Sequence record: PP925839.1
DNA: 64,000 nucleotides
Strand: one strand, 5' to 3'
Origin: Escherichia phage PinkRuby
Shown here: positions 25,847-27,173 of the stretch, one piece after another
How positions within the stretch are numbered: the stretch's first letter is position 1
Layout: every line of letters starts with the position of its first letter
Notes under the pieces: generated by a model
Database searches by the model: none
What the model was told of the DNA's origin: nothing
The model's input: only the letters and a program-made list of their open reading frames with translations
Position numbers and translations under genes: made by a program

Positions 25847-26297
25847 AATCCACCACTATTAAATCAATATCAGGAGTAAACATGTCGATTAATTTAGAAA
25901 CCTTATCCCAATCGCCGCCAGCAATACCACAACCTATGCGTGGAATGTAAATTACCGGTTTAAACAAAAGGGTTTCTGCCTGTAGATTTAATTCTATCAT
26001 GCAGTTTACTAAAGCACCATAATCAAGATTAGGACCTGGTTCGTATTGCGTATACAGGTTATAGCATATACCAAATCCCGTAGGACTATGTTTAAAAACA
26101 ATAGACATATCGCCTAATTTATCGCGAGAACCGTACTCAGTAGTAGTTTTATCTATTTCTAAAATTTTGGGATAGGCTCTGGCTAATTGACCCGCTACAC
26201 CTGAACCCATAGTATGAAAACAATTGCACCCGTGCGCAATAATATTACCTTGAAGAAATAGGGCGACAATATCGCCCTTGATATATTTTACAATCAT
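25818..26297 (-). CDS. Macro-domain (ADP-ribose binding/processing) protein
   Basis: 159 aa; GDIVALFLQGNIIAHGCNCFHTMGSGVAGQLARAYP and later IPRIGCGIAGGDW match the two glycine-rich loops of macro domains; ATGA coupling with upstream ORF. Confidence 0.65.
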   Translation of the reverse strand: MIVKYIKGDIVALFLQGNIIAHGCNCFHTMGSGVAGQLARAYPKILEIDKTTTEYGSRDKLGDMSIVFKHSPTGFGICYNLYTQYEPGPNLDYGALVNCMIELNLQAETLLFKPVIYIPRIGCGIAGGDWDKVSKLIDMFTPDIDLIVVDYESALPTSV

Positions 26298-26635
26298 CTA
26301 GTACTCAATCCTCGATTATAAGAATCTACCAAACGGTCAACCATTGAATGACAAGCGGCTTTATCTTTTTCCTCCGCAACTGAACATTCTAAGGTATTCC
26401 ACTTTTTAGCATATCGTTTTAACAATGTATCATTTTTGTATCTGCTTGATTTATCTCTTTCTCCGTCTTTATATGCATATATTAATTTCTGTGCAAATTC
26501 AGCTTGGCATGCTTTATTTTTCCCGCAATAATCCGCTGCAGTACGGTTTACATACTCTCTAATTTCAGTATATGATGTATCTGCTAACGCAGAAAATGAA
26601 ATTAATCCTATACATAAAACCAAAATTTTAGTCAT
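26294..26635 (-). CDS. Secreted/periplasmic Cys-containing protein
   Basis: 113 aa; signal peptide MTKILVLCIGLISFSALA; 5 Cys. Confidence 0.55.
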   Translation of the reverse strand: MTKILVLCIGLISFSALADTSYTEIREYVNRTAADYCGKNKACQAEFAQKLIYAYKDGERDKSSRYKNDTLLKRYAKKWNTLECSVAEEKDKAACHSMVDRLVDSYNRGLSTR

Positions 26636-27173
26636 TTACTATTTCCAAAAGTTTATTATTTTTAAGGTAATTAGCCTTTTCTAGGACTTCAGAAGCATAT
26701 TTAGAACCTGCTTTAACATTCCATCCCGAATTATAAGAGGATATTGCTTTTCTTATATCGCCCTTATGTATATTTAACCAATAAGAAAGTTCAATGTACG
26801 CCCAGGAAGCTGAATTGGACCGTTTATTCAACATTCTTTTTATTTCAGCATCGGTCATATTATAACCAAGTTCCTTAACTCTTGCTCGCATAGTAGGCAA
26901 ATAATTTTGGAACATTCCGTAGGCGTGATGCTTTGGTTTAGATTTTAAATTAACTCCGCCAGAGCTTTCTTGCCATAAAATAGCAGCCATTATATGACCT
27001 AATCCGCTCTTGTGGATATTTTTGTGTGTTTTATATTTTCCATCCTTAGAAAATTGTTCCCCGAATTGATACGCGTAACGCATGTTATCGAGTTGGACAT
27101 TACTGAAAGTATGCTCGGAGCTATGCGCCATCATTGAAATGGCCAATAGACCAGCGAGTAGTGCTTTTCTCAT
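26628..27173 (-). CDS. Secreted lytic transglycosylase-like (SLT domain) protein
   Basis: 181 aa; signal peptide MRKALLAGLLAISMMAHS; SLT motifs AAILWQESSGG and AYGMFQ...PT. Confidence 0.75.
   Translation of the reverse strand: MRKALLAGLLAISMMAHSSEHTFSNVQLDNMRYAYQFGEQFSKDGKYKTHKNIHKSGLGHIMAAILWQESSGGVNLKSKPKHHAYGMFQNYLPTMRARVKELGYNMTDAEIKRMLNKRSNSASWAYIELSYWLNIHKGDIRKAISSYNSGWNVKAGSKYASEVLEKANYLKNNKLLEIVND

What the first reader, a model, noticed from the sequence alone, without database searches (positions are those of the whole stretch)
26294..27173. Two adjacent signal-peptide proteins: an SLT-type lytic transglycosylase and a small Cys-rich partner
ORF 26628-27173 has a signal peptide and SLT catalytic motifs; the next gene (26294-26635) also has a signal peptide and five Cys. 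An exported muralytic enzyme separate from endolysin e and the gp5 lysozyme suggests a periplasmic role such as lysis timing, superinfection control or envelope remodelling.
Basis: partly seen in the sequence, partly recalled or inferred. Interest (0 to 1): 0.4.

Follow-up and report, generated by a model that had tools for sequence, protein, structure and literature searches.

The report
T4 vs.1–vs: exported transglycosylase pair
These are the long-catalogued phage T4 genes vs.1 (a predicted secreted cell-wall-cutting enzyme) and vs (annotated as a modifier of the host's cytoplasmic valyl-tRNA synthetase); the enzyme prediction is old, but vs has every hallmark of a secreted periplasmic protein welded to vs.1, which does not fit its textbook annotation.

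Summary
The window is a T4-type phage (Tequatrovirus). ORF 26628-27173(-) is 100% identical to T4 Vs.1. ORF 26294-26635(-) is T4 Vs, differing only by an indel inside the signal peptide.

- **Vs.1:** a GH23/SLT-type enzyme. Pfam SLT scores above threshold. E69, GMFQ and YNxG are invariant in 56 homologues, and E69 aligns with the catalytic Glu of E. coli Slt70. The AF2 model matches MltD, Slt and goose lysozyme. A Sec-type signal peptide is conserved. The SLT match was already published (Nolan 2006, citing the T4 genome review).
- **Vs:** All 37 full-length homologues aligned, plus three more distant ones, keep a signal peptide (a lipobox in one). Four mature Cys are invariant, and the mature part is a confident four-helix bundle.
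- **Linkage:** vs follows vs.1 with a gap of -8 to +3 nt in all 37 loci checked. Vs.1 occurs without Vs; Vs was never seen without Vs.1.
- **Fitness:** in published T4 transposon data, both are the only low-fitness genes in their neighbourhood. vs is the top hit in minimal medium.

The genes are known and the physiological role is unknown. The clash between predicted export of Vs and its cytoplasmic annotation is a testable puzzle. Interest is moderate.

The parts
26628..27173 (-). vs.1: pre-protein of 181 aa (20.7 kDa). It has a predicted Sec signal peptide at residues 1-18 (AHS|S). The mature protein is a 163-aa basic (pI 9.65) GH23/SLT-type lytic transglycosylase with catalytic Glu at E69.
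   Evidence: - 100% identical to T4 Vs.1, NP_049725.
- Pfam SLT 25.1 bits, above the cut-off of 21.3; 52 of 56 homologues hit SLT.
- E69, G86, Q89, Y147, N148 and G150 are invariant.
- hhalign places E69 on the RQES Glu of E. coli Slt70.
- AF2 pLDDT 87; Foldseek top hits are MltD, a GH23 chitinase, goose-type lysozyme and Slt/LtgA.
- Signal-peptide features.
26294..26635 (-). vs: pre-protein of 113 aa (12.9 kDa). It has a predicted Sec signal peptide at residues 1-18 (ALA|D). The mature protein is a 95-aa (11.05 kDa) four-helix protein with four invariant Cys (C37, C43, C84, C95). Public records annotate it as 'valyl-tRNA synthetase modifier'.
   Evidence: - 99% identical to T4 Vs; the only differences are a 2-aa deletion and S->L inside the signal-peptide c-region.
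- PF26829 'ValRS_modifier' and phrog_1256.
- AF2 pLDDT above 90 for residues 20-110, helices H20-37, H41-61, H68-84 and H89-110; residues 1-19 have low confidence.
- Signal peptide present in 37 of 37 homologues. Distant member P0119 has a lipobox (LSGC).
26628..26635 (-). 8-nt overlap (ATGACTAA) between the vs.1 stop codon and the vs start codon, implying translational coupling.
   Evidence: Sequence read directly. The gap between the vs.1 stop and the vs start is -8 to +3 nt in 37 of 37 loci from several genera.
27670..27698 (-). Promoter-like site (TTTACT, 17-nt spacer, TATAAT, with an extended -10 TG) upstream of regB. It is the likely start of a regB-vs.1-vs early transcript.
   Evidence: Consensus scan only, 10 of 12 matches. 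No terminator-like site lies between regB, vs.1 and vs. The scan overall found no more promoter-like sites than shuffled sequence gives, so this is a lead, not proof.
26260..26278 (-). G+C-rich hairpin followed by a T-rich tail, 16 nt downstream of the vs stop codon and inside the 5' end of tk.4. It could be a partial terminator or an RNA-stabilising hairpin.
   Evidence: Terminator-like scan found 5 sites against 1.2 expected from shuffles. Function not tested.

Best explanation
The locus is the phage T4 early gene pair vs.1-vs.

Vs.1:
- It is made as a pre-protein, exported through Sec, and released into the periplasm as a basic enzyme of about 18.8 kDa (GH23, SLT family).
- It uses a single catalytic glutamate (E69) to cleave the glycan strands of the host sacculus. 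This is most likely a lytic transglycosylase reaction.

Vs:
- It is translated from the same mRNA by stop/start coupling and is also exported.
- It folds in the periplasm into an 11-kDa four-helix bundle. Two local disulfides probably staple it (C37-C43 across the H1-H2 turn, C84-C95 across the H3-H4 turn).
- It acts there as an accessory of Vs.1, either modulating or targeting it. It is not primarily a cytoplasmic enzyme modifier.

Together they remodel the wall of the infected cell in a way that raises phage yield, most visibly in slow-growing minimal-medium cells.

Shown here: gene identity, conserved catalytic motifs and fold, conserved export signals, invariant Cys, obligatory adjacency, and parallel transposon fitness defects taken from the literature.

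Inferred: actual export and cleavage, disulfide formation, lytic transglycosylase rather than hydrolase chemistry, any physical Vs-Vs.1 contact, and the physiological role.
For: Identity.

Vs.1 enzyme:
- Pfam SLT above threshold; 52 of 56 homologues hit SLT.
- Invariant E-S, GxxQ and YNxG motifs.
- E69 aligns with the catalytic Glu of Slt70 (precursor residue 505, mature E478).
- The AF2 model matches MltD, Slt and g-type lysozyme with probability about 1.
- The mature protein has pI about 9.5 in 28 of the 29 non-redundant homologues compared (range 8.4-10.1; the Morganella orthologue is 8.4).

Export of both proteins:
- Signal-peptide features are kept while the sequence drifts.
- Only 4 of 138 window ORFs pass the heuristic, one of them the known exported RI.
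- The only T4-versus-window differences in Vs lie in the signal-peptide c-region, and both versions keep an AxA site.
- The distant Vs member P0119 carries a lipobox, and P0118 and the Acinetobacter and Morganella versions carry signal peptides.
- The Acinetobacter phage record independently annotates both proteins with a 'putative periplasmic secretion signal'.
- Four Cys are invariant, sit at helix ends, and have variable spacing (C-x5-C; C-x8-C to C-x10-C), which is not a zinc-finger pattern.
- His-tagged Vs made in the cytoplasm is insoluble (PMC8076793).
- No in-frame ATG or GTG follows the signal peptide before M98, so no leaderless isoform is expected.

Linkage:
- vs follows vs.1 at -8 to +3 nt in 37 of 37 loci, spanning Tequatrovirus, Dhakavirus, Kanagawavirus, Marfavirus and Lazarusvirus (Acinetobacter) phages. 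The Gualtarvirus (Morganella) vs.1-vs pair, spaced 2 nt, was identified by eye because its Vs fell below the profile threshold.
- Vs.1-like genes occur alone in Aeromonas T4-likes, Ackermannviridae and Felixounavirus. Vs.1 matches 2045 phage records and Vs matches 804.

Function (HIDEN-SEQ preprint, supplement):
- vs and vs.1 are the only genes between tk and vs.8 with low insertion read means. The means are 26.6 and 22.6, against 180-770 for neighbours, after LB competition.
- vs is the strongest minimal-medium hit (log2FC -2.19). vs.1 moves the same way (-0.87, p 0.0055).
Against: - Vs is the protein that databases equate with the 10-kDa phage factor that binds host valyl-tRNA synthetase, a cytoplasmic enzyme. 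From my own memory of the 1970s-80s literature, which I could not read here, there is also genetic evidence of an in vivo vs-valS interaction. If that is right, at least some Vs acts in the cytoplasm.
- A minimal-medium phenotype is easily explained by an effect on aminoacylation.
- The low counts for vs.1 insertions could be polarity on vs, so they do not prove that Vs.1 itself matters.
- Vs and Vs.1 are not strictly co-evolving. In contig L009, Vs.1 is 65% identical to T4 while Vs is 26% identical.
- Vs net charge is not conserved (pI 4.4-9.0).
- Similarity of Vs.1 to solved LTs is modest (Foldseek E about 1e-2, TM about 0.5; no PDB sequence hit).
- No trained signal-peptide predictor was run.
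Confidence: 0.5

Rival explanations
1. The annotation is right and the adjacency is incidental. Vs is the cytoplasmic tau factor that binds host valyl-tRNA synthetase. It matters in minimal medium because it tunes valine charging. Its hydrophobic N-terminus is inefficient, uncleaved or irrelevant. Vs.1 is an unrelated periplasmic transglycosylase that merely shares the operon.
For: - Every public record names the gene 'valyl-tRNA synthetase modifier', as do Pfam PF26829 and phrog_1256.
- The HIDEN-SEQ authors read the M9 phenotype this way.
- Classical biochemistry (Muller and Marchin 1975/1977, cited in PMC8076793) reports a phage factor binding ValRS.
- T4 early genes are packed tightly and often overlap regardless of function.
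Against: - A Sec-type signal peptide is kept by selection in all homologues down to about 20-26% identity, and one has been swapped for a lipoprotein signal.
- The positive-inside rule puts the mature domain outside the cytoplasm.
- Four invariant Cys arranged as hairpin staples suit an oxidising compartment.
- The original sequence record calls this only 'ORF 60.9', so the vs name was attached later on grounds I could not check.
- The calculated mature mass (11.05 kDa) fits the reported ~10-kDa factor (my recollection) better than the 13-kDa precursor does. This implies the purified factor had been processed, hence exported.
- Vs was never found without Vs.1.
Confidence: 0.3
2. Vs is a dedicated periplasmic inhibitor (immunity-like protein) of Vs.1. 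This would be analogous to T4 Spackle inhibiting the gp5 lysozyme. Vs would hold the transglycosylase in check until late in infection or restrict where it cuts.
For: - Spackle is an early T4 periplasmic protein: a signal peptide, a 75-aa helical bundle with a disulfide, and 1:1 inhibition of a muralytic enzyme (PMC7677548).
- Vs has the same general build and is co-translated with a muralytic enzyme.
- Vs depends phylogenetically on Vs.1, not the reverse.
- In M9, loss of vs is worse than insertion in vs.1 (-2.19 against -0.87), as expected if unrestrained Vs.1 is harmful.
Against: - In LB, vs.1 insertions (which remove Vs.1 and probably lower Vs) are as costly as vs insertions (22.6 against 26.6). 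A pure inhibitor model predicts they would be neutral.
- There is no sequence or fold similarity to Spackle or to the known lysozyme inhibitors in PDB or BFVD searches.
- In T4 both proteins are basic (pI 8.9 and 9.65), unlike acidic Spackle on a basic lysozyme patch.
- No complex model was obtained.
Confidence: 0.15
3. Vs.1 is not a lytic transglycosylase. It is either a GH23 hydrolase (goose-type lysozyme or chitinase-like) or a catalytically inert peptidoglycan-binding protein.
For: - GH23 contains hydrolases as well as LTs. Goose-type lysozyme and the Ralstonia GH23 chitinase are among the best fold matches.
- The only PDB profile hit is a weak one to a g-type lysozyme.
Against: - The three family-1 LT motifs (E-S, G-x-x-Q, A/S-Y-N-x-G) are invariant, which argues against an inert protein.
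- No conserved acidic residue follows E69 in the region where g-type lysozymes carry their second catalytic Asp (read from the alignment).
- MltD and Slt also rank at the top.
Confidence: 0.1

Closest known systems
Phage T4 Vs.1 (NP_049725; UniProt-style name Y06E) and T4 Vs (NP_049724)
   Same: Vs.1 is 100% identical. Vs is identical in the mature part and differs only inside the signal peptide. Gene order is the same: regB-vs.1-vs-tk.4-...-tk.
   Different: Nothing of substance. The window is another Tequatrovirus, closest to vB_EcoM_Kelasse at 99.9%.
Family-1 lytic transglycosylases of Gram-negative bacteria (E. coli Slt70; P. aeruginosa MltD and Slt; GH23)
   Same: - Lysozyme-like helical fold.
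- Single catalytic Glu in an E-S motif, plus the GLMQ-like and AYNxG-like motifs.
- Periplasmic location through a signal peptide.
   Different: - Vs.1 is a bare catalytic domain of about 163 aa. It has no superhelical, LysM or lipid-anchor module.
- Similarity is remote: 13-18% identity in the Foldseek alignments to MltD and Slt/LtgA, with no direct PDB sequence hit.
- It is encoded by a virulent phage and appears to be expressed early.
Small 'specialised' SLT proteins of secretion and conjugation systems (VirB1, IpgF, EtgA and the plasmid R1 P19 type); from my own knowledge, not tested here
   Same: They are signal-peptide-bearing, roughly 150-170-aa proteins consisting only of an SLT domain, and they open the sacculus locally.
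   Different: Those enzymes serve the assembly of a trans-envelope machine encoded next to them. No such machine is known for T4 early infection. No specific sequence relationship was found, and NCBIfam gave no hit.
T4 Spackle (gp61.3) and the gp5 lysozyme
   Same: Spackle is an early T4 product exported to the periplasm. It is a small helical bundle with a disulfide that pairs functionally with a muralytic enzyme (PMC7677548). Vs has the same architecture by prediction.
   Different: - No detectable homology or specific fold match.
- Spackle targets an enzyme of the incoming virion and is encoded far from it. Vs is welded to its putative partner gene.
- sp insertions are neutral in the fitness assay in which vs insertions are not.
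Virion-associated phage transglycosylases (phrog_2013 'lytic tail protein', T7 gp16 type) and secreted or SAR endolysins
   Same: They share the SLT/GH23 catalytic domain (phrog hits at E of 1e-5 to 5e-4). Secreted endolysins are also exported by Sec.
   Different: - Vs.1 is a free, signal-peptide-bearing early-region product, not a domain of a large tail or internal protein.
- It is not the lysis enzyme. In the same data set endolysin e carries almost no insertions (mean read count 2.5), while vs.1 is classed non-essential.

Membership tests
GH23 / Pfam SLT (family-1 lytic transglycosylases) | Significant match to the SLT domain profile | tested here: met
   PF01464 scores 25.1 bits against a gathering cut-off of 21.3, E 1.4e-5. 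52 of 56 homologues match independently, best E 1.3e-7.
GH23 / Pfam SLT (family-1 lytic transglycosylases) | Catalytic Glu in an E-S motif, conserved in homologues | tested here: met
   E69-S70 (WQES): E69 is invariant in 56 of 56 sequences and S70 is conserved in at least 90%. hhalign puts E69 on the Glu of RQES in E. coli Slt70, precursor residue 505 and mature E478. The hhalign probability itself is low because the template is a single sequence.
GH23 / Pfam SLT (family-1 lytic transglycosylases) | Downstream motifs G-L-M-Q and A-Y-N-x-G | tested here: met
   G86-M-F-Q89 and S146-Y147-N148-S-G150 are present. G86, Q89, Y147, N148 and G150 are invariant.
GH23 / Pfam SLT (family-1 lytic transglycosylases) | Lysozyme-like alpha-helical fold | tested here: met
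   AF2 pLDDT 87, pTM 0.81. The Foldseek top 20 are all GH23-type structures (MltD, Ra-ChiC, goose-type lysozyme, Slt, LtgA) at probability 0.8-1.0. Scores are modest, though: E about 1e-2 and TM 0.4-0.55.
GH23 / Pfam SLT (family-1 lytic transglycosylases) | Non-hydrolytic cleavage giving 1,6-anhydroMurNAc ends (distinguishes an LT from a g-type lysozyme) | not testable with these tools
   Indirect evidence only. No conserved second acidic residue lies after E69 (alignment).
Sec-exported periplasmic proteins (both products) | Cleavable N-terminal signal peptide: basic n-region, hydrophobic h-region and a small-x-small site | tested here: met
   Heuristic scan only. 37 of 37 Vs and 55 of 56 Vs.1 homologues show the features (the exception, P0070, has a weakly hydrophobic N-terminus). 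4 of 138 window ORFs pass, including the positive control RI. One Vs homologue has a lipobox. No SignalP was available, and actual cleavage and localisation were not tested.
PF26829 / phrog_1256 'valyl-tRNA synthetase modifier' (Vs family) | Sequence membership | tested here: met
   99% identical to T4 Vs. phrog_1256 E 5e-40. All homologues carry PF26829.
PF26829 / phrog_1256 'valyl-tRNA synthetase modifier' (Vs family) | Binds and alters host valyl-tRNA synthetase | not testable with these tools
   Known only from classical biochemistry cited in PMC8076793. I could not read the papers that link the purified factor or the vs mutations to this ORF. The original sequence record calls it ORF 60.9.
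PF26829 / phrog_1256 'valyl-tRNA synthetase modifier' (Vs family) | Cytoplasmic location, needed to meet ValRS in vivo | tested here: not met
   By prediction only. The evidence is a conserved signal peptide, a lipobox variant, four invariant Cys, and no internal start codon for a leaderless form.
Spackle-type periplasmic inhibitors of phage muralytic enzymes | Homology or specific fold similarity to Spackle | tested here: not met
Spackle-type periplasmic inhibitors of phage muralytic enzymes | Stoichiometric binding and inhibition of a muralytic enzyme | not testable with these tools

The most novel reading that the evidence does not exclude
The textbook function of T4 vs is wrong in place or in kind. 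Vs would be a periplasmic, disulfide-bonded accessory of the secreted transglycosylase Vs.1. The famous 'modification' of valyl-tRNA synthetase would arise largely when the processed ~11-kDa periplasmic protein meets ValRS after cells are broken, much as periplasmic RNase I was once found 'on ribosomes'. Alternatively, the vs name may have been attached to the wrong ORF. Either way, the Vs.1-Vs pair would define a new early-acting phage module that remodels the host wall and sets phage yield in nutrient-poor cells.
Probability: 0.25. Interest if true: 0.65.

Novelty: already known. Interest (0 to 1): 0.4.

Why it matters
T4 is the reference phage, and the label 'valyl-tRNA synthetase modifier' has been copied into hundreds of genome records. 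Some have already degraded it to 'valyl-tRNA synthetase'. Vs.1 orthologues are often mislabelled 'RegB endoribonuclease'.

If Vs really works in the periplasm with Vs.1, three things follow:
- A 50-year-old assignment needs revisiting.
- The only strong minimal-medium fitness gene found in T4 by transposon sequencing gets a different explanation.
- A widespread family of secreted phage transglycosylases gains a first functional handle. This family is phrog_600, found in about 2000 phage genomes across Straboviridae, Ackermannviridae and Felixounavirus.

If the annotation is right, the conserved export signal on a cytoplasmic-acting protein is itself an oddity worth explaining. The experiments needed are simple.

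Tried and rejected
- **Sequence search of Vs and Vs.1 against PDB.** Nothing significant.
- **NCBIfam for both proteins.** No hits.
- **Exhaustive profile search for Vs relatives in 1.84 billion representatives.** Only 8 hits. Those whose context or name I could check are from T4-like phages, and no cellular relative was identified.
- **Leaderless cytoplasmic Vs isoform from an internal start codon.** Rejected for T4 and this window, because there is no in-frame ATG or GTG before M98. Many distant homologues do have a Met 3-5 residues after the cleavage site, but T4 has Tyr at that position.
- **Electrostatic complementarity between Vs and Vs.1.** Rejected as an argument either way. Vs.1 is basic in nearly all homologues, but Vs pI ranges from 4.4 to 9.0.
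- **Strict co-evolution of the pair.** Distances correlate (r = 0.87), but that is expected from shared descent, and L009 is discordant.
- **Literature.** Miller 2003 and Muller and Marchin 1975 are not held. No paper in the library discusses a signal peptide on Vs or an experiment on Vs.1.
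Full report
**What is there**

The 1.9-kb stretch around the finding is 99.9% identical to Escherichia phage vB_EcoM_Kelasse. It is 95-99% identical to about 490 other T4-type phages. Gene order on the minus strand is regB (27181-27642), vs.1 (26628-27173), vs (26294-26635), tk.4 (25818-26297), then several small ORFs, then tk (24485-25066). T4 has the same order.

The 181-aa product is 100% identical to T4 Vs.1. The 113-aa product is T4 Vs, apart from a two-residue deletion and one substitution. All three changes lie in the c-region of the putative signal peptide: SFSASASA|DT in T4 and SFSALA|DT here. The two ORFs overlap by 8 nt.

Both N-termini have the three-part build of a Sec signal peptide. 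I had no trained predictor, so I used two indirect tests.

- *Rarity within the window.* A simple rule set required a basic, acid-free n-region, a 10-residue hydrophobic window, an uncharged run of 12-26 residues, and a small-x-small site. It passes only 4 of 138 ATG ORFs of at least 60 aa. The four are Vs, Vs.1, the known exported antiholin RI, and one other ORF.
- *Conservation of character.* In 37 Vs homologues and 55 of 56 Vs.1 homologues (all but P0070) the N-terminal 18-25 residues drift freely in sequence and length. They always keep the signal-peptide character.

The five Cys of Vs are one in the signal peptide plus four in the mature part. Those four are invariant.

**Vs.1 is a GH23/SLT enzyme, and this is already known**

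- Pfam SLT is hit above the curated threshold, and 52 of 56 homologues hit it independently.
- The three motifs of family-1 lytic transglycosylases are invariant: E69-S, G86-x-x-Q89 and Y147-N148-x-G150.
- A profile alignment to the catalytic domain of E. coli Slt70 superimposes WQES on RQES and GMFQ on GLMQ. That puts E69 on the catalytic Glu.
- The AlphaFold model (pLDDT 87) retrieves MltD, a GH23 chitinase, goose-type lysozyme and Slt/LtgA as its best PDB matches. Scores are modest, with E about 1e-2 and TM about 0.5.
- There is no direct sequence hit to any solved structure.
- The mature protein is basic in all 29 non-redundant homologues compared (pI about 9.5 in 28 of them).

Whether it is a true lytic transglycosylase or a hydrolase cannot be settled in silico. 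The absence of a conserved second acidic residue favours the former.

The SLT match of vs.1 was reported by Nolan et al. 2006, who cite earlier PSI-BLAST results in the T4 genome review (PMC1524935). Several GenBank records already say 'SLT domain-containing protein', or 'putative lytic murein transglycosylase, putative periplasmic secretion signal'. The family (phrog_600, 'unknown function') is large. tblastn finds it in 2045 phage records, including Ackermannviridae and Felixounavirus. I found no experimental work on it.

**The 'small Cys-rich partner' is Vs, the annotated valyl-tRNA synthetase modifier**

Vs belongs to a tiny phage-only family (PF26829, phrog_1256). An exhaustive profile search of 1.84 billion representatives gave only eight hits.

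AlphaFold gives a confident four-helix bundle for residues 20-110, with pLDDT above 90. Residues 1-19 come out disordered and low-confidence. C37 and C43 flank the first helix-helix turn. C84 and C95 flank the last. The spacing of the second pair varies among homologues from x8 to x10, so this is not a metal-binding pattern. It looks like two local disulfide staples, as expected in an oxidising compartment. I could not inspect the coordinates, so that remains an inference.

The most distant members are the most telling.
- P0118 has a classical signal peptide.
- P0119 has a lipoprotein signal (LSGC).
- The Acinetobacter phage Apostate and Morganella phage Rgz1 versions (about 20-25% identical) also have signal peptides.
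- The Apostate authors annotated a periplasmic secretion signal on both Vs.1 and this protein.

Other points agree.
- His-tagged Vs expressed in the E. coli cytoplasm is insoluble (PMC8076793).
- There is no in-frame start codon after the signal peptide that could yield a leaderless form.
- The mature mass is 11.05 kDa and the precursor is 12.9-13.1 kDa. From memory, the ValRS-binding factor was reported at about 10 kDa, which would fit the processed form better. I could not read those papers.
- The original 1986 sequence record labels the gene only 'ORF 60.9'. I could not establish on what evidence the vs name was later attached.

**Linkage of vs to vs.1**

In all 37 loci in which both genes were detected by profile, vs starts between 8 nt before and 3 nt after the vs.1 stop codon. 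These loci span Tequatrovirus, Dhakavirus, Kanagawavirus, Marfavirus and Lazarusvirus (Acinetobacter) phages and metagenomic T4-like contigs. The Morganella (Gualtarvirus) phage has the same layout, but its Vs was recognised by eye.

Vs.1-like genes occur without vs in Aeromonas T4-likes, Ackermannviridae and Felixounavirus. I never saw vs without vs.1. Vs evolves about 1.5 times faster than Vs.1. In one contig the pair is discordant, with Vs.1 at 65% and Vs at 26% identity to T4, which suggests modular exchange of vs.

A promoter-like site with an extended -10 lies upstream of regB. No terminator-like site separates regB, vs.1 and vs. A hairpin with a T-tract follows vs. All this fits one early transcript, but these are consensus scans only.

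**Functional data from the literature**

The HIDEN-SEQ preprint (10.1101/2025.11.20.689424) reports that vs is the most depleted T4 gene in M9-glucose relative to LB. A vs knockout plaques poorly on M9.

In its Extended Data Table 6, both vs and vs.1 are classed non-essential. They nevertheless stand out from every neighbour in mean insertion reads per TA site.

| Condition | vs | vs.1 | Neighbours |
|---|---|---|---|
| Reference library | 103 | 76 | 230-634 (regB, vs.3, vs.4) |
| After liquid LB competition | 26.6 | 22.6 | 179-767 (regB, tk.3, tk.4, vs.3, vs.4) |
| LB to M9, log2 fold change | -2.19 (adj. p about 0) | -0.87 (p 0.0055, adj. 0.155) | |

In the same table sp, imm and rI are unaffected. 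The cost is therefore not a loss of superinfection exclusion or lysis inhibition.

There are caveats. Insertions in vs.1 may be polar on vs. These are read-count means from one preprint.

The pattern is equal cost in LB and a greater cost of vs loss in M9. It fits a joint pathway in which Vs also restrains or directs Vs.1. It also fits an independent Vs function combined with polarity.

**Interpretation**

I rate three statements separately.
- Vs.1 is an exported GH23 enzyme acting on host peptidoglycan: about 0.8.
- Vs is exported: about 0.75.
- Vs acts with or on Vs.1 in the periplasm: about 0.45.

The main rival (0.3) is that the annotation is right and the adjacency is incidental. It explains the minimal-medium phenotype neatly. 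It leaves the conserved export signal, the lipobox variant and the invariant Cys unexplained.

A pure Spackle-like inhibitor model is attractive by analogy (PMC7677548). It is disfavoured by the LB data and by the lack of any fold similarity.

**Verdict**

The feature is real and correctly located, but it is an already-catalogued T4 gene pair, and the SLT prediction is old. The new and testable point is the contradiction between the predicted periplasmic nature of Vs, tightly coupled to a secreted transglycosylase, and its entrenched cytoplasmic annotation. Interest is moderate at 0.4. The most novel reading not excluded is a mislocalised or misassigned vs function and a new wall-remodelling module. 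I give that reading probability 0.25.

Noticed in passing
window 25818-26297 (-): tk.4 orthologue with a macro domain (Pfam Macro E 1.3e-7). The HIDEN-SEQ preprint names T4 Tk.4 'AdfM', an anti-DarTG2 factor. Its start overlaps the vs stop codon by 4 nt.
   Followed up: partly
L012:1453-2070 (Salmonella phage Marshall), L013:1290-1838 (phage Mushroom), and many records: Vs.1-family (phrog_600, SLT) proteins are widely mis-annotated as 'RegB endoribonuclease', 'endoribonuclease' or 'site-specific RNA endonuclease', apparently by drift from the neighbouring gene. Likewise, Vs is often shortened to 'valyl-tRNA synthetase'.
   Followed up: yes
L011:2288-2713 (Acinetobacter phage Apostate orf133), L014:2357-2803 (Morganella phage Rgz1 gp99); probably also L008:778-1185 and L009:4724-5143: In lineages with the divergent Vs type, a third signal-peptide protein (phrog_4957, unknown function) follows vs where T4 has tk.4. 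In Apostate the run of annotated secreted proteins continues straight into rI. This may be a larger periplasmic gene cluster.
   Followed up: partly
L009:3853-4727: Discordant divergence within one contig. Vs.1 is 65% identical to T4 but Vs is only 26% identical and carries a lipoprotein signal. This suggests vs alleles are exchanged independently of vs.1.
   Followed up: partly
window 26260-26278 (-) and 27670-27698 (-): A G+C-rich hairpin with a T-tract lies 16 nt after the vs stop, inside the tk.4 coding sequence. A strong extended -10 promoter-like site lies upstream of regB. Together they would bracket a regB-vs.1-vs transcript.
   Followed up: no
window 25076-25846 (-): The small-ORF block between tk and tk.4 differs from T4's tk.1-tk.3 set (compare). 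It includes a Cys-rich 75-aa ORF (25431-25658) whose Cys/His spacing suggests a zinc-binding protein.
   Followed up: no
window 17156-17563 (-): A 135-aa ORF with a hydrophobic, signal-peptide or signal-anchor-like N-terminus (MKQLVIKRLNLLICCLCIVIAYGYYA...). It is the only other ORF besides RI, Vs and Vs.1 to pass the export heuristic. It was not identified.
   Followed up: no
L005:1974-2324 (Klebsiella phage vB_Kpn_F48) and L003:2001-2348 (Edwardsiella phage PEi26): vs is unannotated in F48. In PEi26 it is annotated from an internal start that removes the signal peptide (annotated 2184-2348). The full ORFs with signal peptides are intact.
   Followed up: yes
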